64,000 nucleotides of DNA. It comes from Nitrosopumilus sp. Its GTDB lineage: Archaea > Thermoproteota > Nitrososphaeria > Nitrososphaerales > Nitrosopumilaceae. The stretch's first letter is position 1; each line of letters starts with the position of its first letter. The notes beneath the pieces were generated by a model. The model had not been told where the DNA came from. It did no database searches and saw nothing but the letters and a program-made list of their open reading frames with translations. Below, piece after piece: positions 5,369-64,000 of this stretch. The stretch lies in assembly GCA_965197525.1 (NCBI GenBank), contig OZ240211.1, positions 1,856,001 to 1,920,000 on the forward strand. Direction: 5' to 3'. Both the position numbers and the translations under genes were made by a program.

Positions 5369-8300
5369 GTGGGGGGGGGGGGTCTGAGGAAGAGAAGAGA
5401 CGGCAGAACCCTTGCAATCACGGCGCTGGCGCTTGTGATGGCGGCTGGGCTCTTGATCACGCAGCCTGGGAGCTGGACTGGCGCGCCCCTGGATGTCGAT
5501 ACTGCCGTTCTGAATGCGTGGCCTCCGTCCGGTGATGCCGTATTCGCGTGGCTGTTGTCAGAATATGCGTTTGCACAGTCTGTAAATGTGGCACCTACCC
5601 TGACACCTGCAGGTCATATCAACACCACCAGCCCCGGCAGTTCCCTGCTTGACACACCGCAGAGCATAGCCGTCTTTGAATCCGGGAACAACAGATACGC
5701 AGCCGTCAAAGCGGTCCATGGCGTCCAGATATTGAACATCACAAACCCTGACAACATTACCGCTACAGACAGCATTGCTGATGGTGGTAGCCGCGTGCTT
5801 TTTGGCTCGGGCTACGTAGATGTCTACATGTCAGGGAACAATCACTACGCAGCCGTTGCAGCAAGAACTGATGACGGCGTCTCGATATTTGACATCACAA
5901 ACCCTGCCAGCATCACACTCGTGGGTCAAATCAAGGACAATACCAGCATCAGACTTGAGGGCCCACGCGGCATCGACGTCTACGAATCTGGAAGCAGCCG
6001 CTACGTGATAGTTGCCACAGATGAGGAAGACGGCGTCCAGATACTGAACATCACAAACCCTGCTAGTATTACTGCAGCAGGTAACATCGCCGAAGATGAC
6101 GATCTCGAGCTTGCCAACCCATACGGCGTCGAGGTCTACAAGTCCAACGACAACATATACGCAATCGTTGCCGGAAACAGTGACGACGGCGTCCAGATAC
6201 TGAACATCACAAACCCTGCCAGCATTACTGCAACAGATAACCTCGAAAAAAGTGGAACTACCCAGCTTGATGGCGCGCGTGACGTTGCCATCTTTGAGTC
6301 CGGGAACAGCATATACGCAGCCGTCACCGCAAGCAATGATCACGCCGTCCAGATACTTGACATCACAGACCCTGCCAACATCATCGAAGCTGACAGCATC
6401 AGAGATACTACCAATCTTCGAAGCGCGTGGGGAATTGACATCTTCGAGTCCGGTGACAGCCGCTACGCAGTCGTCGCCGCCTCAAGCAGCCACCGCGTCC
6501 ATATACTAAACATCACAAACCCTGACAGTATCACCAAAGCCGGCAGCATCGTCGACACTAACGACCTCATACTTGAAACTCCTATCGGCATCGCAGTCTT
6601 CGAGTCAGGTGGCAGCCTCTACACAGCCGTTGTCTCACAAGCTGAAAACGGCGTCCAGATAATAGGTCTGGGGGTGATGTCAGCAGAGATGGTTGTTCCT
6701 CCTATCCCTCCTACCAACACCCCTCCTACAGTTACTACAGGTCCGGACCTGCTCGTGACCAAGGGGCTGTCAGTCCACCTGACAGGGGCCTCTGCCGCAG
6801 ATGTCGACTCTGATGATGTGCTCTCTTATTCATGGTCACAAAATCCTACCGGCACCGTCACTTTCGATGATGCAACCTCGCTTAACCCTACCGTTACAGC
6901 TCCCTTGAGCGGTACTGCCACCTCTGTTGCACTGACACTGTCTGTAAATGACGGCACAAATGATGCCGTAACTGATACTATGACACTGACCATACAGGAC
7001 CCTCCCCCAAGCTTTGTCTCTTCCATCCTCAACTCCACATCAGGCGCACTTGCAATAACTTTTTCAGAGGACATCGATGTAACACCTGCCACAAACGTTG
7101 TTCCGGCCAAGATACACATAAGGGAGTCTGGTAATTACACAGGCGGCGGGATAACCTTGAATGCAGCCGAACTTGACACTACAGTTGATGGTACCACCAT
7201 ATCGTTTGCATTGAATGCATCGCGTCTTGCTACAGTTGTAGCACTGACTGTGCCGGAACTGACGATCGAGCCGGGGGCAGTACAGGATACGTCCGGCACC
7301 CTCATCGACGGCACCTTTGACGTCTCCACCGCTGTCTTCGTCGACGCCACCTCAATCTCAGCCAAGGAGGACGCTCCAAGAGGTCTGGCGTTCTCAAGCG
7401 ACGGCACCAAGATGTTTGTAGTAGGCTATCAAAATGCCGAGGTACACAAATACACGCTATCTACCGCCTTTGATGCATCCACTAGAAGTTTTGTTGATTC
7501 CTTCACAGGGCTCATAAGCGATGAACAACAGCCGCAAGACGTGACATTCTCGAATGACGGCACCAGGATGTTCGTATTGGGCAATGAGAACGACGAGATA
7601 CACGAATACACGCTGTCCACGGCCTTTGATTCACGCAATGCAGTCCGAGCTAGCGCCACCTCAATCTCAGAGGAATCTAACCCGCTAGGCATGGCGTTCT
7701 CAAGCGACGGCACCAAGATGTTCGTAATAGGCAATAGTGGCATGGATGTAAACGAATACGCCCTGTCCACGGCCTTTAATACAACCACTGCAGTCTTTGT
7801 AGATGACACCTCAATCTCAGGTCAGGACCCTGTTCCGACAGGCATGGCGTTCTCAAGCGACGGCACCAAGATGTTCGTAATAGGCAATCAAAACGACGCC
7901 GTAAACGAGTACGCGCTGACTACCACATTTGATGCCTCCACCCTAACCTTCGTGCATGCCGCCGATGTCTCGCAAGAGGAATTAGGCCCACAAGACGTGG
8001 CGTTCTCAAGCGACGGCGCCAAGATGTTTGTAATAGGTAGTGCTGGAGACGACGTAAACGAGTATACATTAAGCTCAGTCTACCCAATTACCGTGATCTC
8101 CGCTGCAGACGCCTTTATCACCACGTGGCAGACGACTTTAGCCAACCAGCCAATAAAAATACCTGTAGAGGTACATTCAGGAAAAGACTTTATCATAGAT
8201 TGGGGTGATGGTAATACAACCACAGTAACTGCTAACGGCATACAGTCACATACATACGCTACAGCTGATACCTACCGAGTCACCATGACTGGTGATCTGT

Positions 8301-11300
8301 CACGGATAAATCTTGGTGGTTCTGGCTCTACACCTGCGTTACTTCACTCAATTAACCAATGGGGGGACATCAAGTGGTCTAGCATGAATGGTGCATTCGG
8401 TGGTGCTACTACAATGACCCACAACGCCACTGACACACCGGATCTATCACAGGTTACTGACATGTCCCACATGTTTAACGATGCCCACGCATTTAACGGA
8501 GACATCTCTACCTGGAACACCTCGTCTGTTACCAACATGTCCCACATGTTTAACGATGCCAGTGAATTTAACAGAAACCTCTCTACCTGGAACACCTCAT
8601 CCGTTACCAACATGTCCTACATGTTCACCTCTGCCAACGACTTTAATGGAGATCTCTCTACCTGGAACACCTCGTCCGTTACCAACATGCGCGACATGTT
8701 CTCATTTGCCGCTGTATTTAACGGAGACATCTCCGGCTGGGATACCTCCTCAATCACCTCCATGTCCCACATGTTCGATGGTGCCGCCGCCTTCACGGGT
8801 GACCTCTCTGGATGGAATGTCTCACAGGTCATCACCATGTCCTACATGTTCTCGGACGCCCAATCATTTAACGGCGACCTCTCCGAATGGGATGTCTCAC
8901 AGGTTCAGAGCATGCAAAACATGTTCTCGGACGCCCAATCATTTAACGGCGACCTCTCCGAATGGGATGTCTCGAAGGTTAAATACATGGACTTTATGTT
9001 CCGTGGTGCCTTTGGCTTTGACAGCGACATCTCCGAATGGAACGTCTCACAGGTCACCACCATGTCCCACATGTTCTCCTCCGCCTTTGCCTTTGACAGC
9101 GACATCTCCGAATGGAACATCTCAAAGGTTACCGACATGGAAAACATGTTCTACTTTGCCACCAGTTTCGACCAGAACCTGGGCCCATGGTACATCGTAC
9201 TTGATAACGATTTCATAGATTTGAGGGATGCCGACACCACCACCATAGGCGTCATCTCCCCGCAGAACTCTGCGCTTGCAGGCCAGAACGGCGCGTACGG
9301 CATCGGTCAAAACCATGACTCTGACATGTTTGAGATTAACGGCACCAGCCTTGACATCAAGGCAGACGCAGACTATACTGCAAAGACTGATTATACCATC
9401 AACATAACCTCCACCCATCCCTATGGAACCGACAACCACCACCTAGTTGATGTGACAGTTACCGAGTCAGTCGATCCTGCCACGACGTTTGTCACCACCT
9501 GGCAGACCACCTCTGCCGGCGAGTCCATAACCATCCCAGTGGGAGATGCCACGGGCAACTATACTGTACACTGGGGCGATGACAGCACCAGCACACACAT
9601 AACTGATGCTGACCACACATACACACAGGCCGGCAGTCACACGGTCAGCATATCGGGCGATTTTACCCGGATACACCTTTTTGATGATGCAAACAACGCA
9701 GGCAAGCTCGCATCCATAGACCAGTGGGGCGACATATCGTGGACTACGATGCAGGATGCATTCAGGGGCGCGTCTAACATGGCATACAACGCCGATGACG
9801 CCCCAAATCTATCCGGGGCCACCTCTATGCACTCCATGTTCCGCGACACCTCCTTTAGCGCCGACCTTTCTACCTGGAACGTATCATCAGTTACCGATAC
9901 GAGCCGGATGTTCCAGAGCAGCTCCTTTAACGGCGACCTCTCCGGATGGAATGTCTCACAGGTTCAGAGCATGCGAAGCATGTTCTCCGATGCCTCCTCC
10001 TTCAACCAGCCCCTTGACACCTGGAACGTCTCCTCAGTTACCAACATGGCCTACATGTTCTACGATGCTGGCAGCTTCAACCAGGATCTGGACACCTGGA
10101 CTGTCTCAAGTGTTGAGACTATGGAATACATGTTCGGCTCCTCATCCACCTTCAATTCTGTCTTCAACGGCGACATCTCTACCTGGAACGTCTCCTCAGT
10201 TACCAACATGGAATTCATGTTCAATCATGCCTCCTCCTTCAACCAGCCCCTTGACACCTGGAATGTCTCGCAGGTCCAGAGCATGCGAAGCATGTTCTCA
10301 GGCGCCTCCTCCTTCAACCAGCCCCTTGACACCTGGAACGTCTCCTCAGTCACCAACATGTCCAACATGTTCTACAATGCTGCCAACTTTGATCAGAATC
10401 TGGGTCCATGGTACATTACACCGGATTCTGTAGACTTTCCTTATGTTGACTCACTTAACGTCACTGATATAACGCCCCAGAATAACGTACTTGCAGGACA
10501 CAACCCGGTATACGACATCGTAGCAGGTGGTAACTTTACACTGTTTGAGATAGTGTCCGGTTCTGACACTCTGGCATTCAAGGCAACACCAACCAGTAAC
10601 GGTCTCCATCAGGTCAACGTGACTGCCACTGGAGGCTCTGTCTTTGAGAGTGGCAACAATTACCACATAATGCAAATAACTGTATCTGACATTCTGACAG
10701 ATAATACTCCACCCCGTGTTGCCTCCATACTGCGTGATACTCCTAGCGTTGCATCCACACCTCTTACTACACTAGTGTTTAATGTCACATTTAATGAACC
10801 AGTAACCAATGTGAATGATGATGACTTTACAGTAACGGGCACCGGCACAGGTACAATATCTGGCGTATCAGGTTCTGGTACATCATACCAGGTGACAGTC
10901 ACAGTAGCCGCTGTTGGAACCATCGGCTTGGATATCGCATCAGGACACAACATACAGGATGCTGCAAACAACGGTCTGACTGACCTGACAACGACTGGCT
11001 CTGATGAGACCTACACGGTAACAGACAGTACTCCGCCTCGTGTTACATCCATACTGCGTGATACTCCTAGCGTTGCATCCACATCTGCTACCACCCTGGT
11101 GTTTGCTGTCACGTTTGATGAACCAGTAATCAATGTGAGTAATGCCGACTTTGCAGTAACGGGCACCGGCACAGGTACAATATCTGGCGTATCAGGTTCT
11201 GGTACATCATACCAGGTGACAGTCACAGTAGCCGCTGTTGGAACCATCGGCTTGGATATCGCATCAGGACACAACATACAGGATGCTGCAAACAACGGTC

Positions 11301-14300
11301 TGACTGACCTGACAACGACTGGCTCTGATGAGACCTACACGGTAACAGACAATAACTCATTTCTGACTACGTGGGAGACTACTGCGGCCAACCCCGCAGT
11401 AAGTATACCTGTAGAGGTACATTCAGGAGAAACCTTTACCATAGATTGGGGTGATGGTACCCCAACTGCCACGGTCAACTCTAACGGCACACAGTCACAT
11501 ACATACGCTACAGCTGGTTCTTATCGTGTCACCATGACTGGTGATCTGTCACGGATAAATCTTGGCGGTTCTGGCTCTACACCTACACTACTTGACTCAA
11601 TTAACCAATGGGGTGACATCCAGTGGTCTACCATGAATAGTGCATTCCGTGGTGCCAGTGATATGACATACAACGCAGCTGATACACCGGATCTATCACA
11701 GGTTACTGACATGTCTGACATGTTCAGACTTGCCACCGCATTTAACGGGGATATCTCTGACTGGGACGTCTCGTCAGTTACTGACATGTCCTCCCTGTTC
11801 TCTGGTGCCAACGCATTTAACAAAAGCCTCGTTGACTGGGACGTCTCGTCAGTTACTGACATGTCCAACATGTTCTACTTTGCCCGCGCATTTAACGGGG
11901 ATATCTCTGGCTGGAACACCTCGTCAGTTACTGACATGTCTCAAATGTTCGATTCTGCCGACACATTTAACGGAGACATCTCTGGCTGGAACACCTCGTC
12001 AGTTACCAACATGTCTGGCATGTTTGACTTTGCCGAAAAATTTAACAGAGACATCTCTGGCTGGGATGTCTCCTCAGTTACCAACATGGACGACATGTTC
12101 GACCATGCAGATGACTTTGACCAAAACTTGGGTCCATGGTACATTACACCGGATTCTGTAGACTTTTCTTATGTTGATTCCCTCAATGTCACTGATATAA
12201 CTCCACAGAATGACGCACTTGCAGGACACAACCCGGTATACGACATCGGAACGGGCGGCAACTTTACCCTCTTTGAGATAGTGTCCGGTTCTGACACCCT
12301 GGCATTCAAGGCAACACCAACCAGTACAGGTGTATATGATGTCAGCGTGACTGCCTCTGACGGCACAGTTTTTGAGGATGGTAATAATCACCGCGTCATC
12401 CGGGTAACTGTATCTGACATTCTGATAGACAGTACGCCACCTCGTGTTGCCTCCATACTGCGTGATACTCCTAGCGTTCCATCCACACCTCTTACCACAC
12501 TAGTGTTTAATGTCACATTTAATGAACCAGTAATCAACGTGGATGCTGCTGACTTTGCAGTAACAGGCACCGGTACAGGTACAGTAACTGACGTATCAGG
12601 TGATGGTACATCATACCTGGTAACAGTCACAGTAGATAATGTTGGAATAATCGGCTTGGATATCGCATCAGGACACGACATACAGGATGCTGCAAACAAC
12701 CCTTTGGACAACCCGACACCGACTGGCTCTGATGAGACCTACACGGTAACAGACAGTACTCCGCCCCGTGTTACATCCATACTGCGTGATACTCCTAGCG
12801 TTGCATCCACAACTGCTACCACCTTGGTGTTTAATGTCACATTTAACGAACCAGTTATCAATGTGGGCGTTGCTGACTTTGATGTAGCAGGCAACGGTAC
12901 AGGTTCAATATCTAACGTATCAGGTTCTGGTGCGTCATACACCGTAACAGTCACAGTAACCGGTGCTGGAACCATAGGATTGGATATCGCATCAGGACAC
13001 GACATACAGGATGCTGCAAACAACCCTTTGGCCAACCTGACACCGACTGGTTCTGATGAGACCTACACGGTAACAGAGACTACGGTACCAGACAGTACTC
13101 CGCCCCGTGTTACATCCATACTGCGTGATACTCCTAGCGTTGCATCCACAACTGCTACCACCCTGGTGTTTGCTGTCACGTTTGATGAGCCGGTAACCAA
13201 CGTTGATGCTGCTGACTTTACGGTAACAGGCACTGGCACCGGCACAATATCTGGCGTATCAGGTTCCGGTGCATCATACCGGGTAATAGTCACAGTAGAT
13301 AATGTTGGAATAATCGGCTTGGATATCGCATCAGGACACGACATACAGGATGCTGCAAACAACCCTTTGGACAACCCGACACCGACTGGCTCTGATGAGA
13401 CCTACACGGTAGCAGAGACTACGGCACCAGACAGTACTCCACCACATGTTGTCTCCATACTGCGCAACACCCCTCTCGCTGAATCCACAACTGCTACCAC
13501 CCTGGTGTTTGCTGTCACGTTTGATGAGCCGGTAACCAACGTTGATGCTGCTGACTTTACAGTAACAGGCACCGGCACAGGTACAATATCTGGAGTAACA
13601 GGCACCGATACGTCATACACCGTAACAGTTACAGTAACTGATGTTGGAACCATCGGCTTGGATATTGTATTAAACCACGACATCAAGGATACTACAAACA
13701 ACGATCTGACCGACCTAGCACCTACCGACAATGATGAGACCTACACAGTCACGGTAACAGACAATACTCCGCCCCATGTTGCCTCCATACTGCGCAACAC
13801 CCCTCTCGCTGAATCCACAACTGCTACCACCCTAGTGTTTGCTGTCACGTTTGATGAATCAGTCATCAATGTGAATGATACTGCTGACTTTACAGTAACA
13901 GGCACCGGCACAGGTACAATATCTGGCGTATCAGGTTCAGGTGCATCATACCGGGTAACAGTCACAGTAACCGCTAGTGGAACCATAGGATTGGATATCG
14001 CATCCGGACACGACATCAAGGATACTGCAGACAACGATCTGACTGACACTACAGTGGTAGGCTCTAATGAGACCTACATAGTCAACCAGCTACCCGTACT
14101 GAATAATATCCCATCACAGACTGGAGATGAGCTTACACCCCTCACGTTCACTGCTGAAGCAACTGATCGTGATAACGATCCCCTGACATACTCCCTTATC
14201 GGGACGATACCTGACGGTGCCACGATGGATACTAATACTGGAGTGTTCTCATGGACGCCAACTGAGACGCAGGATGGCATCCACACCGTAACCGTACAGG

Positions 14301-15730
14301 TCTCTGACGGTAACGGCGGCGGCGGCACTGACTTGCAGGACGTCACGATAACTGTAACTGAGGTAAATCAGAATCCTGTACTTGATTCAATAGGTGGACA
14401 GACCATAGATGAGACAGACACACTCAAGTTTGATGCAACAGCCAGGGACGACGACATATACCAAGGCTCTCCTAACTCCCTGACATTCTCACTTGGTGAC
14501 GGGGCAGACAGACCACGCGGTGCATCAATCACCCGTGACGGCTCGTTCTCTTGGAGGCCTGACCAGTCCCAGGACGGCGTATACTCTATTAATGTGACTG
14601 TCTCTGACGGCCGGGGCGGCACCGCATCCGAACTGGTATCAGTTACAATAAATGACATAGCTCCGCGTCTTGTATCGGTACGGGGATCTGACTCTTCTAT
14701 AACGTTGACATTCTCTGAGCCAGTTAACACCCGCGGAACAGGCTCCGGCGGATTTACAGTATCTTCTTCTTCTTCTTCTGGTAATACAGTCACAGTGGAA
14801 TCCATCACCGGAAGTGGCACCGACACCCTTACGTTACTACTTGATGGTCCACTGTCTCGTGGGGACACGCTCTCATACGACAGTAGCACAGGCGATATTG
14901 TAGACGAGTTCAACAAAGATTTGGAATCATTTGTTGATGCTGCCATACTGCTCAAGTCCAAAAAGTCAGGTACCGCACCACCGTCTGTGGATACACTTGA
15001 GATAAACGGCCAGAGTTACAATGCTCAAAACAGGGTAAACCATAATGCCACGCCGCTGGAGGTTGCAGTAGATCAACCCATATCCATAAGTTTTACGGCA
15101 CACGACAGACTTGACATACTCTACTTTGCAGTATACCTGAACCTTCAAGATGACGACATGTCATACACGAACAGTGATACGTACGTGGAATACAACAGAG
15201 GTCAAACAAATATCACTGATCCTCAAGACTTGCTGTCAGATGCCTCTCTCACCGTGTCAACTGACCCTGATGATTCCACTGAGAAGACAGTCACACTTGA
15301 TATCACGTTTGCAGAGCCAATAGGGAATACCAACATGGTAATCAGGACTTGGAATGCAGACAACGAGTCTTCAATCGTCATAATCGTTGATGCACTAAAT
15401 GTCATACCCATGGAGGTGGATCCAGAGCCACAAGTAACAGAGGTGGACCCAGAGCCACAGTTACCGGCAGTACCTAATCCAGAACCTGAGACTGAGACTT
15501 TTGCTGATGACTTTGACTATGACCGTGCATTGTTTGTACTGCGCATGTGGTCTGGATTTGAATCTGAGATAGCAGATGACAATCAACTGTTAACTGTCAT
15601 GGGCCTGACTCACATGGGAACAGACATACCTGCCTGGGTCATGACTGATCTTGCACCACTAGTGGTAAAAGAACTGATAACCCTAGACGAGTTTAGAGTT
15701 GCATTAGAGTACGTGATGGGAAATACCTGA
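5369..15730 (+). CDS. Giant (3453 aa) modular surface protein: signal/TM, LVIVD-like propeller, Ig/PKD, second propeller, three DUF285/BspA cassettes, 7 Ig-like repeats, cadherin/putative-Ig domains, thaumarchaeal C-terminal domain
   Basis: RKRR + hydrophobic TLAITALALVMAAGLL; 7x VQILNITNP-type repeats; 5x FSSDGTKMFV; WxVSxVTxMxxMF 25-aa repeats; TPPRVxSILRDTP repeats; C-terminal IPAWVMTDLAPLVVKELITLDEF. Start codon uncertain. Confidence 0.9.
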   Translation: MGGGGLRKRRDGRTLAITALALVMAAGLLITQPGSWTGAPLDVDTAVLNAWPPSGDAVFAWLLSEYAFAQSVNVAPTLTPAGHINTTSPGSSLLDTPQSIAVFESGNNRYAAVKAVHGVQILNITNPDNITATDSIADGGSRVLFGSGYVDVYMSGNNHYAAVAARTDDGVSIFDITNPASITLVGQIKDNTSIRLEGPRGIDVYESGSSRYVIVATDEEDGVQILNITNPASITAAGNIAEDDDLELANPYGVEVYKSNDNIYAIVAGNSDDGVQILNITNPASITATDNLEKSGTTQLDGARDVAIFESGNSIYAAVTASNDHAVQILDITDPANIIEADSIRDTTNLRSAWGIDIFESGDSRYAVVAASSSHRVHILNITNPDSITKAGSIVDTNDLILETPIGIAVFESGGSLYTAVVSQAENGVQIIGLGVMSAEMVVPPIPPTNTPPTVTTGPDLLVTKGLSVHLTGASAADVDSDDVLSYSWSQNPTGTVTFDDATSLNPTVTAPLSGTATSVALTLSVNDGTNDAVTDTMTLTIQDPPPSFVSSILNSTSGALAITFSEDIDVTPATNVVPAKIHIRESGNYTGGGITLNAAELDTTVDGTTISFALNASRLATVVALTVPELTIEPGAVQDTSGTLIDGTFDVSTAVFVDATSISAKEDAPRGLAFSSDGTKMFVVGYQNAEVHKYTLSTAFDASTRSFVDSFTGLISDEQQPQDVTFSNDGTRMFVLGNENDEIHEYTLSTAFDSRNAVRASATSISEESNPLGMAFSSDGTKMFVIGNSGMDVNEYALSTAFNTTTAVFVDDTSISGQDPVPTGMAFSSDGTKMFVIGNQNDAVNEYALTTTFDASTLTFVHAADVSQEELGPQDVAFSSDGAKMFVIGSAGDDVNEYTLSSVYPITVISAADAFITTWQTTLANQPIKIPVEVHSGKDFIIDWGDGNTTTVTANGIQSHTYATADTYRVTMTGDLSRINLGGSGSTPALLHSINQWGDIKWSSMNGAFGGATTMTHNATDTPDLSQVTDMSHMFNDAHAFNGDISTWNTSSVTNMSHMFNDASEFNRNLSTWNTSSVTNMSYMFTSANDFNGDLSTWNTSSVTNMRDMFSFAAVFNGDISGWDTSSITSMSHMFDGAAAFTGDLSGWNVSQVITMSYMFSDAQSFNGDLSEWDVSQVQSMQNMFSDAQSFNGDLSEWDVSKVKYMDFMFRGAFGFDSDISEWNVSQVTTMSHMFSSAFAFDSDISEWNISKVTDMENMFYFATSFDQNLGPWYIVLDNDFIDLRDADTTTIGVISPQNSALAGQNGAYGIGQNHDSDMFEINGTSLDIKADADYTAKTDYTINITSTHPYGTDNHHLVDVTVTESVDPATTFVTTWQTTSAGESITIPVGDATGNYTVHWGDDSTSTHITDADHTYTQAGSHTVSISGDFTRIHLFDDANNAGKLASIDQWGDISWTTMQDAFRGASNMAYNADDAPNLSGATSMHSMFRDTSFSADLSTWNVSSVTDTSRMFQSSSFNGDLSGWNVSQVQSMRSMFSDASSFNQPLDTWNVSSVTNMAYMFYDAGSFNQDLDTWTVSSVETMEYMFGSSSTFNSVFNGDISTWNVSSVTNMEFMFNHASSFNQPLDTWNVSQVQSMRSMFSGASSFNQPLDTWNVSSVTNMSNMFYNAANFDQNLGPWYITPDSVDFPYVDSLNVTDITPQNNVLAGHNPVYDIVAGGNFTLFEIVSGSDTLAFKATPTSNGLHQVNVTATGGSVFESGNNYHIMQITVSDILTDNTPPRVASILRDTPSVASTPLTTLVFNVTFNEPVTNVNDDDFTVTGTGTGTISGVSGSGTSYQVTVTVAAVGTIGLDIASGHNIQDAANNGLTDLTTTGSDETYTVTDSTPPRVTSILRDTPSVASTSATTLVFAVTFDEPVINVSNADFAVTGTGTGTISGVSGSGTSYQVTVTVAAVGTIGLDIASGHNIQDAANNGLTDLTTTGSDETYTVTDNNSFLTTWETTAANPAVSIPVEVHSGETFTIDWGDGTPTATVNSNGTQSHTYATAGSYRVTMTGDLSRINLGGSGSTPTLLDSINQWGDIQWSTMNSAFRGASDMTYNAADTPDLSQVTDMSDMFRLATAFNGDISDWDVSSVTDMSSLFSGANAFNKSLVDWDVSSVTDMSNMFYFARAFNGDISGWNTSSVTDMSQMFDSADTFNGDISGWNTSSVTNMSGMFDFAEKFNRDISGWDVSSVTNMDDMFDHADDFDQNLGPWYITPDSVDFSYVDSLNVTDITPQNDALAGHNPVYDIGTGGNFTLFEIVSGSDTLAFKATPTSTGVYDVSVTASDGTVFEDGNNHRVIRVTVSDILIDSTPPRVASILRDTPSVPSTPLTTLVFNVTFNEPVINVDAADFAVTGTGTGTVTDVSGDGTSYLVTVTVDNVGIIGLDIASGHDIQDAANNPLDNPTPTGSDETYTVTDSTPPRVTSILRDTPSVASTTATTLVFNVTFNEPVINVGVADFDVAGNGTGSISNVSGSGASYTVTVTVTGAGTIGLDIASGHDIQDAANNPLANLTPTGSDETYTVTETTVPDSTPPRVTSILRDTPSVASTTATTLVFAVTFDEPVTNVDAADFTVTGTGTGTISGVSGSGASYRVIVTVDNVGIIGLDIASGHDIQDAANNPLDNPTPTGSDETYTVAETTAPDSTPPHVVSILRNTPLAESTTATTLVFAVTFDEPVTNVDAADFTVTGTGTGTISGVTGTDTSYTVTVTVTDVGTIGLDIVLNHDIKDTTNNDLTDLAPTDNDETYTVTVTDNTPPHVASILRNTPLAESTTATTLVFAVTFDESVINVNDTADFTVTGTGTGTISGVSGSGASYRVTVTVTASGTIGLDIASGHDIKDTADNDLTDTTVVGSNETYIVNQLPVLNNIPSQTGDELTPLTFTAEATDRDNDPLTYSLIGTIPDGATMDTNTGVFSWTPTETQDGIHTVTVQVSDGNGGGGTDLQDVTITVTEVNQNPVLDSIGGQTIDETDTLKFDATARDDDIYQGSPNSLTFSLGDGADRPRGASITRDGSFSWRPDQSQDGVYSINVTVSDGRGGTASELVSVTINDIAPRLVSVRGSDSSITLTFSEPVNTRGTGSGGFTVSSSSSSGNTVTVESITGSGTDTLTLLLDGPLSRGDTLSYDSSTGDIVDEFNKDLESFVDAAILLKSKKSGTAPPSVDTLEINGQSYNAQNRVNHNATPLEVAVDQPISISFTAHDRLDILYFAVYLNLQDDDMSYTNSDTYVEYNRGQTNITDPQDLLSDASLTVSTDPDDSTEKTVTLDITFAEPIGNTNMVIRTWNADNESSIVIIVDALNVIPMEVDPEPQVTEVDPEPQLPAVPNPEPETETFADDFDYDRALFVLRMWSGFESEIADDNQLLTVMGLTHMGTDIPAWVMTDLAPLVVKELITLDEFRVALEYVMGNT
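5371..5382 (+). promoter_or_regulatory. G12 homopolymer at the 5' end of the giant surface-protein gene (candidate phase-variation tract)
   Basis: 12 consecutive G between candidate start codons (5205, 5353, 5369; three different frames) and the signal-peptide coding sequence. Confidence 0.6.
5640..6665 (+). repeat. Seven LVIVD-like repeats (about 52 aa), probable beta-propeller
   Basis: Recurring GGCGTCCAGATACTGAACATCACAAACCCTG / VQILNITNP. Boundaries approximate. Confidence 0.75.
8410..9190 (+). repeat. DUF285 cassette 1: nine 75-bp repeats plus FDQNLGPW cap
   Basis: FNGD(I/L)SxW(N/D)xSxVTxMxxMF with 25-aa period. Confidence 0.85.
9790..10410 (+). repeat. DUF285 cassette 2: seven repeats plus cap
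   Basis: FNQPLDTWNVSSVTNM-type units. Confidence 0.85.
10700..14080 (+). repeat. Seven Ig-like repeats of about 325 bp (2 before cassette 3, 5 after)
   Basis: DxTPP(R/H)VxSILR(D/N)TP...TLVFxVTFxEPV...TIGLDI; 10830-11027 is identical to 11154-11351. Confidence 0.85.
11660..12140 (+). repeat. DUF285 cassette 3: five repeats plus cap
   Basis: FNGDISGWNTSSVTDM-type units. Confidence 0.85.
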
Positions 15731-16033
15731 AGAAGCATCTAGTTTTTCAGATCGTATGCATGTGCAACAGACAGGTTGTACATATCCTTGCACTCAGTCA
15801 GTGTCTTATGTATCTTCTCGGAGATGGCGGAGTCCTAGCAAAAATCTAATTTGTATGTAAGTATCAACAAACAAGCATTCTCTTTAGATTCTAAAAAGAT
15901 TGTTAATGAGTCTAGTCTACTCAAGTATATAATCCCCTTGATTATCTTGCTTGATTGAATTACTTTTGCACTCGTCTGTACCTTATTTTTATCTGATGTT
16001 GAATCCAAACTACTTTCAAGTTAACTTGGTTGT

Positions 16034-16900
16034 TTACAGCTTGAATGATGCAAATTTTATTAGATTATACAAATTCGCCTTTGCATCGCTTTCTGGAATT
16101 TTTCTTAAACTGGTTTTTGCCTGCTCTGAATATTTCTTTAGCAATTCCTCCATCATGTTAAACACATCTCTTGGATCGGAACTTTTTTTGATTAGCAAGT
16201 TAAACAGCTTGTCTTCATTCTTCCAATCCAACAGGTCATCTCGAATCTGATACGCTATTCCTATATTCTTTCCATACTCTGTTAATGCTTCTATCTGTTC
16301 TTCATCTCCGTTTGCAATAATTGCTCCTATCCTTGCCGCTACTTCAAACGCAGTCGCTGTTTTATACTCGATTACTTTGAGATAGTCATCAAACGTTACA
16401 TCCTCACTGGTCTCTAACCTACTCTCAATCATCTCTCCTTCACTCATCATCATGGCAGTAGTTGCCAAGTCTTTTGTAATTCTGGCGTTGTCTAACTTTG
16501 ATGATATTGCAAGAATCAATCCTAAAACAAAATCTCCTGTAAGCACACTTGTGTTATAGCCATATTTTATATGAAAAGGATCTTTCTGTCTTCGCATTGT
16601 CTCATTATCAATGATATCGTCGTGAATAATTGACTCCATGTGCAAAAATTCGATGGCACACGATGCCGTTAGCGTGTTCTCATCCATCTTGCCGACACAT
16701 TCTGCTGCCAAATTCAAAATAACTGGTCTAATTCGCTTGCCGCCTTCAAGGGAGTATCTTAATGGCTCGATAAACTCTGACTCTGAATAAATAGCTAATT
16801 CGTTTTCCAGAGCTTGGTCGATCTTTTCAATATATCTTCCATATGATTCAAGTAAGGGATTTATCTCTACATTCTTTCTATCCAATATGACCCTCATCAA
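16034..16900 (-). CDS. Polyprenyl diphosphate synthase (GGPP synthase-like)
   Basis: GGKRIRP, HDDIID (FARM), YKTA, QIRDDLLD (SARM). Confidence 0.9.
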   Translation of the reverse strand: MMRVILDRKNVEINPLLESYGRYIEKIDQALENELAIYSESEFIEPLRYSLEGGKRIRPVILNLAAECVGKMDENTLTASCAIEFLHMESIIHDDIIDNETMRRQKDPFHIKYGYNTSVLTGDFVLGLILAISSKLDNARITKDLATTAMMMSEGEMIESRLETSEDVTFDDYLKVIEYKTATAFEVAARIGAIIANGDEEQIEALTEYGKNIGIAYQIRDDLLDWKNEDKLFNLLIKKSSDPRDVFNMMEELLKKYSEQAKTSLRKIPESDAKANLYNLIKFASFKL

Positions 16901-16995
16901 AAATTTTAATTGTTAGTAAATAAATCTTAGGCAGTATCTTCTGTAGATGCCAAAGATCTTGTATACAGTCTCTTTTGTTAATGGAGAAATCTAAG

Positions 16996-17086
16996 TGCTC
17001 CAGCCGGGATTTTCATCGTTTGATTTTGAACCCGGGATCACTGCCTTGAAAGGGCAGTATGCTTGACCGGTCTACACCACTGGAAC
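16996..17086 (-). tRNA. trnE: tRNA-Glu(TTC) with a 15-nt intron in the T-loop (59/60)
   Basis: GTTCCAG/CTGGAGC acceptor; CTGCC-CTTTCAA-GGCAG anticodon arm; 22-nt T-loop folds as a bulge-helix-bulge whose excision restores TTCAAAT. Confidence 0.92.
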
Positions 17087-17166
17087 CTATAAAAAATCTG
17101 TTCTTTGACCATAAAATCTTTTGTAACTCGCAAAGATTTTTTTAATGGTAGTATTGTTGATGAATC

Positions 17167-17805: not shown

Positions 17806-17847
17806 ACTAGCAACGTTTTTTATCTGAGAAAAATTTCATCTGCATGG

Positions 17848-17921
17848 GGGCCCGTAACTCAGCTTGGTAGAGTAACCGGCTCATAACCGGTGAGCCAAGG
17901 GATCGAAGCCCTTCGGGCCCA
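17848..17921 (+). tRNA. tRNA with CAT anticodon, probably tRNA-Ile2 (agmatidine-modified) rather than Met
   Basis: GGGCCCG/CGGGCCC acceptor, ACCGG-CTCATAA-CCGGT, AAGGG/CCCTT T-stem, A73; acceptor pattern matches archaeal Ile2 and lacks initiator A1:U72. Confidence 0.85.
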
Positions 17922-38013: not shown

Positions 38014-38016
38014 ATC

Positions 38017-51746: not shown

Positions 51747-52220
51747 TTAAGAGAAGTCTCTGTCTCTTTCTATTGATACAGTATAGTACGGTTTGTCTGC
51801 CCTTCTCTTCTTTGATACAGTAGTTGTAATCTGTGCATCGTCTGCTATTATTAGCTGTCTGTCGTGTCTTATCTCGTCATTATTTTTTAATTTAGGATCA
51901 ACTATCAAGCCGTTATTCTCGGGTGGTGATGCCTGCAGCACCTCAAAGACTCCTCCAGTCAAGTTGTCTAAATCTCCAAGATAGTCAGGCCTGTCTATCC
52001 TTGTTTCAGGATTGGGGTCATAGACTGTCAACTCTAGTTTTATTGGGCCTTTTAGATACTCACCTTTCAATTTTTTACTTTCCTTGTATGCTCTTTGTCT
52101 TAGATTGACTACCAGCTGAATTTGATTATTGCCAGCAGACCACAGTGACGGTTTGGTTTTCTTTGGAGGTTTTCCTTCTACTCTAAATTCAATCTTGTCT
52201 CTCTTTCTTAGAAAATTCAT
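51747..52220 (-). CDS. RusA-like Holliday-junction resolvase fold protein
   Basis: FRVEGKPP, DLDNL and DDAQI resemble the RusA catalytic motifs. Confidence 0.55.
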   Translation of the reverse strand: MNFLRKRDKIEFRVEGKPPKKTKPSLWSAGNNQIQLVVNLRQRAYKESKKLKGEYLKGPIKLELTVYDPNPETRIDRPDYLGDLDNLTGGVFEVLQASPPENNGLIVDPKLKNNDEIRHDRQLIIADDAQITTTVSKKRRADKPYYTVSIERDRDFS

Positions 52221-60584: not shown

Positions 60585-60595
60585 CATAATGGCGA

Positions 60596-61756
60596 TTATA
60601 CGGATGAAGTGGCGCTATGTTGTGAAAAGCGTCTTACACTGTTGTAGATATCTATCTTTAGTCTGATCTCATGAATGATGTTTTGCATGGTAATAGCTTT
60701 GACTGAATGCCCAAACATTCGTTTGAATGTAGAGAATGTAATCTCTACTAACCATCGCCTGCTGTAACCCGCCTGTTTCTTCCATTTGTTCCTGTTCTTC
60801 TGACGATCTTCTGCGCTGATCTTGTCCATCTCTTTTGGATTGGTAGTATGCCCGCCTAACTGTTCTAGTATTGCACAATCGCGGCTTGTATGCAGATATC
60901 TGCCATTCTCATCAGATGTGCACTTTGCATTGTTTCGTATTCGTATATACGGGGTTATTCTCATGGATTCACAGTAATCAAAGATCTCTTTAGAGTCATA
61001 TCCCCCATCTGCACGCATCTCAACTTCGATATTTGGTCCACGACCACCTTTTGTCATATCTTCCATCTCTTTACGACGTTTTTTCGGATCTATTCCAAGG
61101 CATACTAGTGCGTCATTTATCATCAGAATGCATTGAGGAGCATCGCCTGTATGCTCATCAGTCACTCTAAAGGCAAGTATCTCTTGAGTCTCTTGACTTG
61201 TCATTATACTGAGCCTGATGAATCCCAGCTTTGTTTTGTATTTGTGATGTCTCCAAAAACTATAGTCAGAAGGTGACAGACCCGTACCATCTGGAACTAG
61301 CTGTACAAACATCCCCTTTCGCTCTATTTTGATTGAATATATTGATGGCAAGAGATCTATCTTGTTTACCCTTCTGCACAGTACCGAATAATCAGGAGTT
61401 CTCTCTTCTCCTATCTGTTTCTTTACCATTCCAACACATTTACGATAGGTTGTGTCCAAAATAAGCTTCAAAATTGCAATCTCCTTTATCATACTATTCG
61501 TATATTTGAATTTTGCACCTTCTTTTCCTTTGTTCATATCTGCAAGCTCTGCACGTTCATCATCAACGGATGCAAACTTTGGTTGTGCCATTTCACCAAT
61601 ATGGATTTGCACTGTATCATTATGGGTATGGTCTATCTTCTTTTTAGTACGTTTGGGGTACTGGTTATACGGTGAATTTTTGGATTCGTTCTTCTTCTTC
61701 TTTTCCTGTTTTCCAACACTTTTCTTGGAATTCTTCTTCTTTGTTTTTAACATCAA
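60596..61756 (-). CDS. IS5-family DDE transposase (intact)
   Basis: PDYSVLCRR, VPDGTG (D1), RADGGYD (D2), YSRRWLVEITFSTFKR (YREK/E). Confidence 0.92.
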   Translation of the reverse strand: MMLKTKKKNSKKSVGKQEKKKKNESKNSPYNQYPKRTKKKIDHTHNDTVQIHIGEMAQPKFASVDDERAELADMNKGKEGAKFKYTNSMIKEIAILKLILDTTYRKCVGMVKKQIGEERTPDYSVLCRRVNKIDLLPSIYSIKIERKGMFVQLVPDGTGLSPSDYSFWRHHKYKTKLGFIRLSIMTSQETQEILAFRVTDEHTGDAPQCILMINDALVCLGIDPKKRRKEMEDMTKGGRGPNIEVEMRADGGYDSKEIFDYCESMRITPYIRIRNNAKCTSDENGRYLHTSRDCAILEQLGGHTTNPKEMDKISAEDRQKNRNKWKKQAGYSRRWLVEITFSTFKRMFGHSVKAITMQNIIHEIRLKIDIYNSVRRFSQHSATSSV

Positions 61757-62057: not shown

Positions 62058-64000
62058 ATGGTGTATAAAAAGTGGGCTATTTTTACGGTCTCATGCGTTT
62101 TATTTCTCGTTTCATCTTCTGTCACTGTGTCCGCATCTGCCACTACTTATTCTACAACAGGCGCGTTTATTACCACATGGGAGACTACCTCTCCAAACGA
62201 GTCGATAACTATCCCTGTGGGTGGGTTCAGCGGCAATTATACCGTAAACTGGGGCGACGACAGCACAGATACAAACGTCTCGGGGGATCGGACGCATCTA
62301 TATTCCGCACTTGGCAACCACACTGTCATCATATCGGGCAATTTTTCCAAGATATATCTGGGTGGTGATCAGAACAATGCTGCCAAGCTGAGGTCTATCG
62401 ACCAGTGGGGCTCTGCTCAGTGGACCTCTATGGAAGGTGCATTCAAGGGAGCATCCAACATGGTTTATCGCGCAATTGATTCCCCAGACCTTTTGCGCGT
62501 CACCAACACGGCCTCCATGTTCCACGACGCTGTTATCTTCAACGGTAACCTCTCCGGCTGGGATGTCTCACATGTCACCTACATGTCTAACATGTTCAAA
62601 AATGCCGACTCCTTCAACGGTAACCTCTCCGGCTGGGATGTCTCACATGTCACCGACATGTCTGACATGTTTCTCAGTGCCGACTCTTTTGCCGGCAACC
62701 TCTCCGGCTGGGATGTCTCATCTGTAACCGACATGTCCCGTATGTTTTGGTTTGCAACCAACTTTAACAGTGACCTCTCCGGCTGGGATGTCCAATCGGT
62801 GGAAAACATGGGTGAGATGTTTGCTTTTGCATTTGTCTTTACTAGCGACCTCTCCGGCTGGGATGTCTCACGCGTCACCGACATGCGTTATATGTTCCAA
62901 CACGCATTTGTCTTTACTAGCGACCTCTCCGGCTGGGATGTCTCACGCGTCACCGACATGCGTTATATGTTTAATGACGTCGCCAACTTTACTAGCGACC
63001 TCTCCGGCTGGGATGTCTCACGCGTCACCAACATGCGTTCTATGTTTCATGGCGCCGACTTCTTTAACAGCGACATCTCCAACTGGAACATTACTAGTGT
63101 TACAGACATAACAGGCATATTTAGCAGTAACTCTGCTTTTGTTCAGAACCTTGGCAAGTGGTATATCGTGTTAGACGATGCTACTATTGATATGGACGAT
63201 ATTCCTAGGAGGGCATATATATTTCCACAGACTGAGGCGCTTACAGGCGGCGAGCGCCCTAGTTACAAAATGGGATCCGGAGACGACTCGGGCTCGTTTC
63301 GTATTATTGCCCGCAACCAACTGTGGATGAATTTGACCCCTGATAGAGACTTGTACACTGTCCACATTACTTATGGCGGATCGCTTGGCACCAACAACCA
63401 TCGTGTATATAACATAACGGTGACCAACGTAGACCCTGATTCTGCAACCGCTCCAATTGTCACATCGATCACAAGAAGCAGTCCCTCAGATGCAACAACT
63501 AGTAAGCAGGCACTAGTCTTCAAGGTCACGTTCAGTGAGAATGTCATCGGTGTGGACGCCAATGATTTTGTACTCTCTTCAGAGAGCACTGGAGCAGGTA
63601 GCGTGGTAAGCCTGAAAGGCTCTGGTAGCGTGTACTATGTGACAGTTTATGCCACGCAGAGAGGGACATACAACCTTGATCTTGTCTCATCTGGCCACGG
63701 CATAACAGATACTGCAGACAATCCCCTAACCAACACCGTCCCCGCCACCGGAACAGACCACACATATACTGCCAACATTGCAGCTGCAGACACTGCTGCC
63801 CCCACACTTGCATCAATCCAGAGAAGTAATCCTGCCGTCGCAAATACCAACAGCCAGACCCTGATATACGAAGTGACCTTCAGTGAGGATGTGAAAGGAG
63901 TGGATGCATCTGACTTTGTTCTGTCTTCTGATAGCACGGGTACTGCTGCTAATTCTGTAACCTCCATATCTGGTTCTGGCAGCCAGTACTTTGTGACAGT
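62058..64000 (+). CDS. Second DUF285/BspA surface protein (3'-truncated by window; absent from the ORF track)
   Basis: ATG 62058: signal peptide MVYKKWAIFTVSCVLFLVSS, FITTWETT-PKD cap, 8 DUF285 repeats, FVQNLGKW cap, then Ig-like repeats; frame open to 64000. Confidence 0.9.
   Translation, partial: MVYKKWAIFTVSCVLFLVSSSVTVSASATTYSTTGAFITTWETTSPNESITIPVGGFSGNYTVNWGDDSTDTNVSGDRTHLYSALGNHTVIISGNFSKIYLGGDQNNAAKLRSIDQWGSAQWTSMEGAFKGASNMVYRAIDSPDLLRVTNTASMFHDAVIFNGNLSGWDVSHVTYMSNMFKNADSFNGNLSGWDVSHVTDMSDMFLSADSFAGNLSGWDVSSVTDMSRMFWFATNFNSDLSGWDVQSVENMGEMFAFAFVFTSDLSGWDVSRVTDMRYMFQHAFVFTSDLSGWDVSRVTDMRYMFNDVANFTSDLSGWDVSRVTNMRSMFHGADFFNSDISNWNITSVTDITGIFSSNSAFVQNLGKWYIVLDDATIDMDDIPRRAYIFPQTEALTGGERPSYKMGSGDDSGSFRIIARNQLWMNLTPDRDLYTVHITYGGSLGTNNHRVYNITVTNVDPDSATAPIVTSITRSSPSDATTSKQALVFKVTFSENVIGVDANDFVLSSESTGAGSVVSLKGSGSVYYVTVYATQRGTYNLDLVSSGHGITDTADNPLTNTVPATGTDHTYTANIAAADTAAPTLASIQRSNPAVANTNSQTLIYEVTFSEDVKGVDASDFVLSSDSTGTAANSVTSISGSGSQYFVT
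62535..63160 (+). repeat. DUF285 cassette 4: eight 75-bp repeats
   Basis: CTCTCCGGCTGGGATGTC is invariant in 7 units; units 5-7 are near-identical. Confidence 0.9.

What the first reader, a model, noticed from the sequence alone, without database searches (positions are those of the whole stretch)
8100..63430. DUF285 cassettes look combinatorially shuffled: all four N-cap/C-cap pairings are present
Each of four cassettes is N-cap (FxTTWxTT-PKD-SIxQWG), then n 25-aa repeats (n = 9, 7, 5, 8), then C-cap (FxQNLGxWYI plus linker). There are two N-cap types: A (IPVEVHSG..GDLSRINLGGSGSTP; cassettes 1 and 3, close at DNA level) and B (SITIPVG..NYTVxWGDDST..NNAxKLxSIDQWG; cassette 2 and gene 2). There are two C-cap types: X (WYIVLD..; cassette 1 and gene 2) and Y (WYITPDSVDF..; cassettes 2 and 3). 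So the cassettes are A+X, B+Y, A+Y and B+X, a four-gamete pattern that simple duplication does not easily give and that implies crossovers inside the 75-bp arrays, including between two loci about 50 kb apart. Repeat frameworks are conserved at DNA level, while variation concentrates in the residues flanking MF and the conserved Ala. Inference: a repeat-recombination diversification system for archaeal adhesins, architecturally analogous to cap-variable-cap LRR receptors such as lamprey VLRs.
Basis: partly seen in the sequence, partly recalled or inferred. Interest (0 to 1): 0.82.

Follow-up and report, generated by a model that had tools for sequence, protein, structure and literature searches.

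The report
Recombining LRR adhesin cassettes in an archaeon
Two giant secreted surface-protein genes of a Nitrosopumilus-like archaeon, probably sponge-associated, carry four PKD-DUF285(LRR)-Ig cassettes that are mosaics made by ordinary homologous recombination among 27 such cassettes in the genome; this is a normal way for repeat adhesin families to evolve, not a dedicated VLR-like diversification machine.

Summary
The four cassettes, their repeat counts (9, 7, 5, 8), cap type A (cassettes 1 and 3) and cap type Y (cassettes 2 and 3) are real. Type X is not: the C-caps of cassette 1 and gene 2 are 43% identical, against 35-41% across types. The cassettes belong to a family of 15 genes and 27 cassettes.

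Genome-wide N-cap and C-cap trees are incongruent (AU p = 4.5e-32 and 2.9e-5), so A/non-A by Y/non-Y is a true four-gamete pattern. Cassette 1 switches from A-type repeats (r1-r3) to non-A repeats (r5-r9), which puts a breakpoint inside the array. A 235-nt identical tract shared with a paralog 225 kb away (P about 5e-9) shows recent gene conversion.

Gene 2 is not a partner of gene 1. A syntenic ortholog from another assembly keeps the same cap pairings and repeat numbers. Its arrays are only 79-86% identical where caps and flanks are 96-100%, and two units have been homogenised. That rules out an assembly chimera and fast cap swapping. No reverse transcriptase and no APOBEC_N (AID/APOBEC-family) deaminase domain was found.

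Verdict: mosaic evolution of a BspA/DUF285 LRR family by unequal crossing-over and gene conversion. First-stage readers made similar notes on other DUF285 genes of this genome.

The parts
5369..15730 (+). Gene 1: 3453-aa secreted giant surface protein. It has an N-terminal hydrophobic leader, two kinds of non-DUF285 repeat modules, three PKD-DUF285-Ig cassettes, about 8 Ig-like ~113-aa domains, and He_PIG/Big_9/PKD domains.
8114..8503 (+). Cassette 1 N-cap, type A (PKD-like sandwich plus the first degenerate LRR turns)
   Evidence: 73% aa to the cassette 3 N-cap
8504..9157 (+). Cassette 1 array, 9 units. r1-r3 are A-type, r4 is neutral, r5-r9 are non-A type, so there is an internal recombination breakpoint. 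This array is a strain-level hot spot (window 8828-9127 is 79% identical to the ortholog).
9158..9475 (+). Cassette 1 C-cap, non-Y ('X'), with the Ig-like domain. There is no close relative in the genome (best 49% aa).
9488..9868 (+). Cassette 2 N-cap, non-A ('B'); sister to the cassette 1 N-cap of the paralog g15 (support 99/94)
9869..10378 (+). Cassette 2 array, 7 units (24-29 aa). r2r3 and r6r7 are an internal duplication (r3/r7 91% nt). r7 resembles repeats of A+Y arrays.
10379..10696 (+). Cassette 2 C-cap, type Y; sister to the g15 cassette 2 C-cap (93/92), with a 96-98% identical tract
11360..11752 (+). Cassette 3 N-cap, type A
11753..12106 (+). Cassette 3 array, 5 units, colinear with g15 cassette 3 (88-96% per unit)
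12107..12424 (+). Cassette 3 C-cap, type Y
12077..12311 (+). 235-nt tract identical to the paralog at genome 2.093 Mb, inside an alignment that is 89% identical overall: a recent gene-conversion tract
   Evidence: P about 5.5e-9
11124..15727 (+). 3' 4.6 kb of gene 1 (cassette 3 plus all downstream domains): a colinear segmental copy of the 3' end of paralog g15 (89% nt)
62058..64000 (+). Gene 2 (runs past the window end; the stop-to-stop frame is 951 aa): signal peptide, one cassette, then Ig-like domains that are 95-97% identical to copies in many other genes
62166..62549 (+). Gene 2 N-cap, non-A (53% aa to the cassette 2 N-cap)
62550..63128 (+). Gene 2 array, 8 units. r1/r2 and r5-r7 are 85-89% identical to one another (intra-array duplication). 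No unit is more than 76% identical to any other cassette.
63129..63446 (+). Gene 2 C-cap, non-Y; long branch, best match 43% aa
60596..61756 (-). DDE transposase (IS4/IS5-type) 300 bp upstream of gene 2

Best explanation
The four cassettes belong to a lineage-specific family: 15 genes, 27 N-caps and 26 C-caps. The genes encode giant secreted surface proteins. Each cassette is a PKD/Ig-like N-cap, a DUF285 (BspA/TpLRR-type leucine-rich-repeat) solenoid of 2-21 turns of 25 aa, and an Ig-like C-cap. The family evolves by ordinary homologous recombination.

The near-invariant 75-bp repeat framework and the conserved cap motifs (FxTTWxTT, SIxQWG, NLGxWY) supply the homology. They allow (i) unequal crossing-over and intra-array conversion, which change and homogenise repeats, (ii) non-allelic gene conversion between paralogs hundreds of kb apart, and (iii) gain or loss of whole cassettes at the FxTTW motif. 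These events uncouple N-caps from C-caps and produce the A+nonY, nonA+Y, A+Y and nonA+nonY pairings.

On top of this, residues 8-18 of each turn (8, 10, 11, 14, 15, 17, 18) accumulate substitutions at about the neutral rate or slightly above it, while the framework is under purifying selection. The result is a variable surface on a constant scaffold.

Shown: the mosaicism, the breakpoint position, the conversion tract, the strain-level array turnover and the LRR fold (predicted). Inferred: RadA-type recombination as the mechanism, an adhesin or host-recognition role, and that the variable arc forms one face.
For: Family size and architecture. Y is a clade (99/98). The A versus non-A split has support 89/95. 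AU tests reject congruence: p = 4.5e-32 when the N-cap data are forced to keep Y-bearers together, and p = 2.9e-5 when the C-cap data are forced to keep A-bearers together.

Repeat painting used controls. All repeats of the four pure A+Y control arrays painted score +0.04 or more towards the A+Y pool, and all repeats of the four non-A/non-Y control arrays painted score +0.02 or less. Cassette 1 scores +0.12 to +0.15 for r1-r3, then -0.05 to 0 for r5-r9.

Relative to paralog g15, gene 1 carries one extra cassette bounded by the FxTTWQTT motif on both sides. The cassette 2 N-cap is sister to g15 cassette 1 and its C-cap is sister to g15 cassette 2. A 235-nt identical tract sits in an 89% background, P about 5.5e-9.

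The syntenic ortholog (L043) has flanks about 97% identical and caps 96-100%, with no 75-nt indels. Its arrays are 79% (cassette 1) and 86% (cassette 2) identical. In that strain r5/r6 of cassette 1 are 99% identical to each other, against 87% in the window.

dN/dS is 1.28 at hypervariable positions and 0.20 in the framework. In the strain comparison, hypervariable codons show 32 nonsynonymous and 5 synonymous changes and framework codons show 29 and 29 (Fisher p = 3.7e-4).

The AlphaFold2 model has pLDDT 93.5 and reads Ig, solenoid, Ig. Best structural matches are TpLRR 6mlx (Z 14.5) and the BspA-like BACOVA_04585 4fs7 (Z 12.1).
Against: The parental sequences of the old events are only 70-85% identical to the mosaic segments, so donors, direction and order of events cannot be reconstructed. 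One of the two 'recombinant' pairings could be an ancestral intermediate rather than a recombinant; four gametes require only one event or more.

The N-cap A/non-A split has good but not maximal support (89/95), and the bootstrap had not fully converged. The groups tested by AU were named after looking at the sequences. Nearest-neighbour repeat pairs used for dN/dS are not independent, and the excess over 1 is not significant (binomial p = 0.07).

Function (adhesion, host recognition) is untested. No coordinates were available to place the variable residues on the model.
Confidence: 0.8

Rival explanations
1. A dedicated, programmed diversification system, analogous to lamprey VLR assembly, pilE/pilS or vlsE-type cassette conversion, or a diversity-generating retroelement. 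It would actively shuffle repeats and caps to generate receptor diversity within a population.
For: The architecture is cap, variable LRR, cap. The hagfish VLR is among the structural matches (2o6q, Z 11.0). Variation is confined to one arc of each turn. A truncated promoter-proximal paralog fragment exists (g07). Arrays diverge much faster than caps between strains.
Against: All window cassettes sit in complete, in-frame genes, and no bank of partial donor cassettes flanks them. No reverse transcriptase and no APOBEC_N (AID/APOBEC-family) domain were found in a 99%-complete closed genome. Third-position C bias is general and not specific to variable codons. Cap pairings and repeat numbers are identical in a strain whose flanks have diverged about 3%. 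Non-DUF285 repeat modules of the same gene are even more divergent (66-77%). g07 is simply a gene truncated by an IS element.
Confidence: 0.05
2. The odd cassettes, especially the unique A+nonY cassette 1, or the whole family, came in by horizontal transfer from other members of the same (sponge) community. On this view the mosaic reflects recombination with external donors rather than intragenomic shuffling.
For: GC3 of the DUF285 genes is 0.40-0.68, against 0.355 for background ORFs. The family is found in only 5 of 60 other genomes of the genus. The cassette 1 C-cap has no close relative in the genome. Metagenome contigs matching array segments at 90% or more reach summed depths in the thousands, against 10-20x for contigs of the organism itself. 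An IS transposase lies next to gene 2. The PARCEL literature proposes horizontal transfer (PMC2996958).
Against: Types A and Y are expanded only in this genome: the nearest C-cap in other species of the genus is 56% identical or less, against 72-96% within the genome. The clearest exchange partners (g15, g14, g04/g07) are intragenomic. High depth on conserved framework words may be collapsed repeats. GC3 enrichment could equally come from GC-biased gene conversion.
Confidence: 0.1
3. There was no recombination. The four pairings arose by duplication and divergence with convergence or rate heterogeneity, or they are assembly chimeras across near-identical repeats.
For: Several C-caps sit on long branches. 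Short-read contigs from the source metagenomes cannot span the arrays.
Against: A and Y are defined by 82-84% nt identity over 320-390 nt, which convergence does not produce. AU tests reject congruence. The repeat types switch within cassette 1. An independent assembly from another strain has the same architecture at the syntenic locus. Mosaic segments have no identical donor elsewhere in the genome, as a chimeric assembly would require.
Confidence: 0.03

Closest known systems
PARCEL / DUF285 (PF03382, TIGR02167) repeat surface proteins of Mollicutes and other microbes (Roske et al. 2010, PMC2996958); NCBI 'BspA family leucine-rich repeat surface protein'
   Same: The same 25-residue repeat family, with HMM scores far above cut-off. 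Arrays have variable copy number, a conserved hydrophobic frame and variable hydrophilic positions. The proteins are targeted to the surface. Some copies are associated with mobile elements. 'Intra-genomic shuffling' was already proposed for the family. Many marine Bacteroidota proteins combine DUF285 with PKD domains.
   Different: This one is archaeal; the 2010 survey found none in Archaea. The proteins are giant and multi-cassette, with each LRR array framed by a PKD-like N-cap and an Ig-like C-cap. Here the shuffling is demonstrated quantitatively (tree incongruence, breakpoint, conversion tract, strain comparison) rather than inferred from distribution.
Recombining LRR gene families: plant NLR/RLP resistance-gene clusters and Listeria internalins (background knowledge, not tested here)
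   Same: An LRR solenoid with solvent-exposed hypervariable positions on a conserved frame. Evolution runs by unequal crossing-over, gene conversion and birth-and-death, giving chimeric paralogs. The internalin-like layout (cap, LRR, Ig-like inter-repeat domain) resembles the model.
   Different: A different LRR subclass (TpLRR/BspA-type, 25 aa). The paralogs are dispersed rather than clustered. Several cassettes sit within one polypeptide. The ligand is unknown.
Lamprey and hagfish variable lymphocyte receptors (VLR)
   Same: An LRR fold (hagfish VLR 2o6q, Z 11.0) with a variable number of LRR modules between caps, and diversity created by copying between homologous LRR segments.
   Different: VLRs are assembled somatically from an incomplete germline gene plus flanking donor cassettes by AID/APOBEC-like deaminases. 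Here the genes are complete, no donor bank or APOBEC_N domain was found, and pairings are stable between strains. The resemblance is architectural and evolutionary, not mechanistic.
Eukaryotic-like proteins of sponge symbionts (Haber et al. 2021, PMC7848895)
   Same: That paper lists the DUF285 LRR among eukaryotic-like protein domains enriched in sponge metagenomes and present in two sponge-associated thaumarchaeal genomes. Part of this gene is held by a sponge metatranscriptome run.
   Different: The paper only records domain presence. It contains no cassette anatomy or recombination analysis. The sponge origin of this particular genome was not verified here.

Membership tests
DUF285 / PARCEL (BspA-type LRR) surface proteins | Match to PF03382 / TIGR02167 above the curated cut-off | tested here: met
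   PF03382: 722 bits (gene 1) and 267 bits (gene 2) against a cut-off of 25. TIGR02167: 243 and 114 bits against a cut-off of 30.
DUF285 / PARCEL (BspA-type LRR) surface proteins | Tandem units of about 25 residues with a conserved hydrophobic frame and variable hydrophilic positions | tested here: met
   150 exact 25-aa units genome-wide, with a per-position entropy table.
DUF285 / PARCEL (BspA-type LRR) surface proteins | LRR-type solenoid fold | tested here: met
   AlphaFold2 model pLDDT 93.5. VIA-align matches: TpLRR 6mlx Z 14.5, BACOVA_04585 4fs7 Z 12.1, and many other LRRs at Z 10-13. This is a predicted, not solved, structure. Repeat proteins give inflated Z-scores.
DUF285 / PARCEL (BspA-type LRR) surface proteins | Dyad symmetry of the coding DNA (the 'palindromic' part of PARCEL) | not tested
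   Not examined.
VLR-type somatic LRR assembly | Incomplete expression locus flanked by banks of partial donor LRR cassettes | tested here: not met
   Both genes are complete ORFs. The 46 kb between them holds housekeeping genes.
VLR-type somatic LRR assembly | AID/APOBEC-family cytidine deaminase | tested here: not met
   No PF08210 (APOBEC_N) match in the 99%-complete genome. Other deaminase families were not searched.
VLR-type somatic LRR assembly | Different assembled arrays in different cells of one population | not testable with these tools
   Only short Logan contigs were available, and none spans an array. Between two strains the architecture is identical.
Diversity-generating retroelement (DGR) target | Reverse transcriptase plus a template/variable repeat pair with adenine-specific changes (NNC codons) | tested here: not met
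   No RVT_1 match in the genome. The fraction of C at third positions is 0.33-0.68 at variable codons and up to 0.9 at conserved codons, so there is no variable-codon-specific NNC signature.
Silent-cassette antigenic variation (pilE/pilS, vlsE type) | One expression site plus promoterless silent copies that donate segments | tested here: inconclusive
   The only partial copy found, g07 (L022:1336-2397), keeps its own start and leader and is cut off by an IS element. Every other cassette whose frame was traced lies in a long ORF.

The most novel reading that the evidence does not exclude
The cassettes form a fast-evolving recognition repertoire of a host-associated (sponge) ammonia-oxidising archaeon. 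Intra-array gene conversion, together with diversifying selection on one face of the LRR solenoid, would generate strain-specific binding surfaces. Arrays diverge about 5-7 times more than caps between strains. That would make the family an evolutionary (germline) analogue of LRR immune and adhesion receptors, in Archaea. GC-biased gene conversion may explain its high GC3.
Probability: 0.3. Interest if true: 0.55.

Novelty: new member of a known kind. Interest (0 to 1): 0.4.

Why it matters
The report documents, with formal tests, how a large LRR surface-protein family in an archaeon is built and rebuilt by recombination. It covers cassette-level mosaicism, a recent conversion tract, and array turnover between strains. 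The DUF285/PARCEL family was reported as missing from Archaea in 2010, and in sponge thaumarchaeal symbionts it has only been listed as a 'eukaryotic-like' domain. If the variable face binds host or particle ligands, these genes are candidates for host specificity in sponge-archaeon symbiosis. The result does not reveal a new molecular mechanism.

Tried and rejected
1. There is no reverse transcriptase, and the C3 bias is not specific to variable codons.

2. APOBEC-like deaminase. No match was found.

3. Read-level test for chimeras or variants. The four runs are Logan contigs of at most about 500 nt over this stretch. None spans an array, and the many 'joints' have sides under 36 nt and come from repeats or other organisms. 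The test is uninformative either way.

4. Species-level relatives. Only 4 of 18 genus genomes match the DNA, at 65-72% identity, which is too distant to date events.

5. Sequence search of the PDB. No hit.

6. Foldseek on the whole model. It gave only low TM-scores (0.2-0.3) to LRR+Ig proteins and cadherins. VIA-align was more informative.

7. Mapping variable residues on the model. No coordinates are exposed. Only DSSP is available, and it shows a one-residue beta-bridge at repeat position 8 in each turn. The 'one face' claim therefore rests on sequence periodicity.

8. Gene 2 as a partner of gene 1. Rejected.

Full report
**What is there.** The window lies at 1,856,001-1,920,000 of a closed 2.21-Mb genome that is 99% complete. 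Its relatives form a large genus of small genomes (1-2.4 Mb). NADH dehydrogenase subunit genes lie upstream of gene 1.

Gene 1 (window 5369-15730, +, 3453 aa) and gene 2 (62058 to beyond the window end) start with hydrophobic leaders. Both match Pfam DUF285 (E = 1.5e-221 and 1.8e-80) and the NCBIfam PARCEL repeat. Exact part coordinates were checked by translation.

An AlphaFold2 model of cassette 3 was built from an 18-cassette alignment (pLDDT 93.5, pTM 0.89). It shows a beta-sandwich, a solenoid and a second beta-sandwich. Its best structural matches are LRR proteins: T. pallidum TpLRR 6mlx (Z 14.5), the BspA-like BACOVA_04585 4fs7 (Z 12.1), internalins, and hagfish VLR 2o6q (Z 11.0). Repeat folds inflate Z-scores, so I read this only as 'LRR-type solenoid'.

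**The family context changes the question.** The genome holds 91 DUF285 matches. They lie in 15 long ORFs carrying 27 N-caps and 26 C-caps. In my labels gene 1 is g11 and gene 2 is g12.

N-cap type A occurs in eight cassettes: g04, g07, g11 cassettes 1 and 3, g14 cassettes 1-3, and g15 cassette 3. C-cap type Y occurs in nine: g04, g11 cassettes 2 and 3, g14 cassettes 1-3, and g15 cassettes 1-3.

In maximum-likelihood trees Y is a clade (99/98). The split between A and all other N-caps has support 89/95. The C-caps of cassette 1 and gene 2 are 43% identical in protein, against 35-41% for cross-type pairs. Both sit on long, unresolved branches. 'B' (cassette 2 and gene 2) is only 53% identical. 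The true relatives of the cassette 2 N-cap are the first two cassettes of g15.

**Is the four-gamete pattern real?** Yes, once it is recast as A/non-A by Y/non-Y.
- A+Y: six cassettes.
- A+nonY: g11 cassette 1 only.
- nonA+Y: g11 cassette 2 and g15 cassettes 1 and 2.
- nonA+nonY: gene 2 and about a dozen others.

AU tests reject the trees that would make caps congruent. Forcing Y-bearers together on the N-cap data costs 128.8 log-likelihood units (p = 4.5e-32). Forcing A-bearers together on the C-cap data costs 44.6 units (p = 2.9e-5). The groups were named after I had seen the alignments. Even so, A and Y are defined by 82-84% nucleotide identity over 320-390 nt, which convergence does not explain.

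**Where are the breakpoints?** I painted each 75-nt unit against repeats of pure A+Y arrays and of pure non-A/non-Y arrays.
- Controls behave cleanly. All repeats of the four pure A+Y control arrays painted score +0.04 or more towards the A+Y pool. All repeats of the four non-A/non-Y control arrays painted score +0.02 or less.
- Cassette 1 scores +0.12 to +0.15 for r1-r3, +0.01 for r4, and -0.05 to 0 for r5-r9.
- In g15 cassette 1 the whole array is non-A and the junction lies at the last repeat/C-cap boundary.
- In g11 cassette 2 the last unit (r7) and its internal copy (r3, 91% identical) resemble repeats of A+Y arrays.
- The cassette 2 N-cap is sister to that of g15 cassette 1 (99/94), while its C-cap is sister to that of g15 cassette 2 (93/92).

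Gene 1 and g15 are colinear paralogs. Their 5' flanks match up to the FxTTWQTT motif. Gene 1 then carries one extra whole cassette (A+nonY) before homology resumes at the next FxTTWQTT. Cassettes are therefore also gained or lost as units at that motif.

**Is exchange recent?** The 3' 4.6 kb of gene 1 is an 89% copy of the 3' end of g15, which lies 225 kb away. Inside that copy a 235-nt run (window 12077-12311, in the Y C-cap) is identical. The chance of such a run is about 5.5e-9, so this is a gene-conversion tract.

Gene 2 has no close partner. Its units are at most 76% identical to any other cassette. Within its own array, r1/r2 and r5-r7 are 85-89% identical to one another. The claimed exchange between the two window loci is not supported.

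**Strain comparison.** A database search returned a 3461-aa protein from an independent ENA assembly, 88% identical over its full length. Its contig is syntenic on both sides. In a 25.6-kb alignment:
- Housekeeping flanks are about 97% identical.
- Window 10.6-19.3 kb is 99-100% identical.
- Caps are 96-100% identical.
- No indel is a multiple of 75 nt.

Both strains thus have the same cap pairings and the same 9, 7 and 5 repeats. This argues against an assembly chimera and against rapid cap swapping.

The arrays of cassettes 1 and 2 are only 79% and 86% identical in their most divergent 300-nt windows. In the other strain, r5 and r6 of cassette 1 are 99% identical to each other and 87-88% identical to r4. 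In the window strain the corresponding values are 87% and 64%. This is intra-array conversion since the strains split.

The two non-DUF285 repeat modules of the same gene (window 5561-6748 and 7349-8227) are even more divergent, at 66-83%. Parts of the second one match a paralog near genome 57-59 kb better than they match the ortholog. Fast turnover is therefore a property of internally repetitive DNA in these genes, not of DUF285 specifically.

**Variable positions.** Across 150 units, amino-acid entropy is 2.7-3.8 bits at positions 10, 11, 14, 15, 17 and 18. It is 2.0-2.6 bits at positions 5, 8, 21 and 25, and near zero at W1, S4, V6, M9, M12, F13 and F19.

For 81 nearest-neighbour unit pairs, dN/dS is 1.28 at the six hypervariable codons, 1.00 at the semi-variable codons and 0.20 in the framework. 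Between strains, hypervariable codons show 32 nonsynonymous and 5 synonymous changes, while framework codons show 29 and 29 (Fisher p = 3.7e-4). The excess over the neutral 3:1 expectation is not significant (p = 0.07).

The variable residues occupy one contiguous arc of each 25-residue turn, so by periodicity they stack along one side of the solenoid. I could not verify this on coordinates. I also could not tell whether that side is the concave one.

**No dedicated machinery.** The genome has no RVT_1 match and no APOBEC_N match. Third-position C is common at conserved and variable codons alike.

The 46 kb between the two genes encodes housekeeping enzymes. It also holds a PIN protein, a Fic protein, STAND-type ATPases and a weak RusA-like hit. 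A DDE transposase lies 300 bp upstream of gene 2. The truncated paralog g07 is cut off by an IS element. I conclude that general homologous recombination is sufficient to explain the pattern.

**Comparison with known systems.** The proteins are members of the DUF285/PARCEL (BspA-type LRR) family. For that family, variable arrays and 'intra-genomic shuffling' were proposed in 2010, when no archaeal member was known (PMC2996958). DUF285 LRRs have since been listed among eukaryotic-like domains in two sponge-associated Thaumarchaeota (PMC7848895). A sponge metatranscriptome run holds part of this gene.

From background knowledge, the evolutionary mode matches plant LRR resistance-gene families and internalins. 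The VLR comparison holds for fold and layout but fails the defining features that could be tested: complete genes, no donor banks, no APOBEC_N domain, and stable pairings between strains.

**Verdict.** The 'diversification system' reading is overstated. This is a well-documented archaeal example of a known evolutionary process. First-stage readers made similar notes on other DUF285 genes of the same genome.

Noticed in passing
window 5369-15730 and 62058-64000; genome-wide DUF285 genes: The DUF285 genes are compositionally atypical. Their GC3 is 0.40-0.68, against 0.355 for 949 background long ORFs, and it is highest in the non-A/non-Y genes. Foreign origin and GC-biased gene conversion in a recombining family would both fit.
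   Followed up: partly
window 10600-19300: This stretch is 99-100% identical to the syntenic strain contig L043, while both flanks are about 97% identical. An inter-strain recombination tract of about 9 kb appears to cover the 3' half of gene 1 and the next genes.
   Followed up: no
window 5561-6748 and 7349-8227: Two non-DUF285 repeat modules at the 5' end of gene 1 (VQILNITNP-type and SSDGTKMFV-type repeats) are the most divergent parts between strains, at 66-77% identity. Some segments of the other strain match a paralog near genome 57-59 kb better than the ortholog.
   Followed up: partly
window 60596-61756 (-): An IS4/IS5-type DDE transposase lies 300 bp upstream of gene 2.
   Followed up: partly
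L022:305-3248 (genome about 913.2-916.2 kb): A 353-aa 5' fragment of a g04-like DUF285 gene (leader, type-A N-cap, 6 repeats, no C-cap) is truncated. It is flanked by an IS630-like transposase (HTH plus DDE_3) on one side and a DDE_Tnp_4 transposase on the other. Its repeats are the best matches to r1-r3 of cassette 1.
   Followed up: partly
window 63618-64000 and genome 1,919,618-1,923,989: The ~338-nt Ig-like module downstream of gene 2's cassette recurs at 92-98% identity in many genes across the genome. This suggests concerted evolution. Similar modules continue beyond the stop of the 951-aa frame, so gene 2 may be split or followed by a related ORF.
   Followed up: no
window 8000-12600 in runs X1-X3: Metagenome contigs matching parts of the arrays at 90% or more have summed depths in the thousands, while contigs that are clearly from this organism are at 10-20x. 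Either much more abundant community members carry near-identical DUF285 framework sequence, or repeats are collapsed.
   Followed up: no
window 19304-19774, 27399-28271, 36841-40359, 51747-52220: A PIN-domain protein, a Fic/DOC protein, two archaeal STAND/ATPase_2 proteins and a weak RusA-like ORF lie among the housekeeping genes between the two adhesin genes.
   Followed up: no
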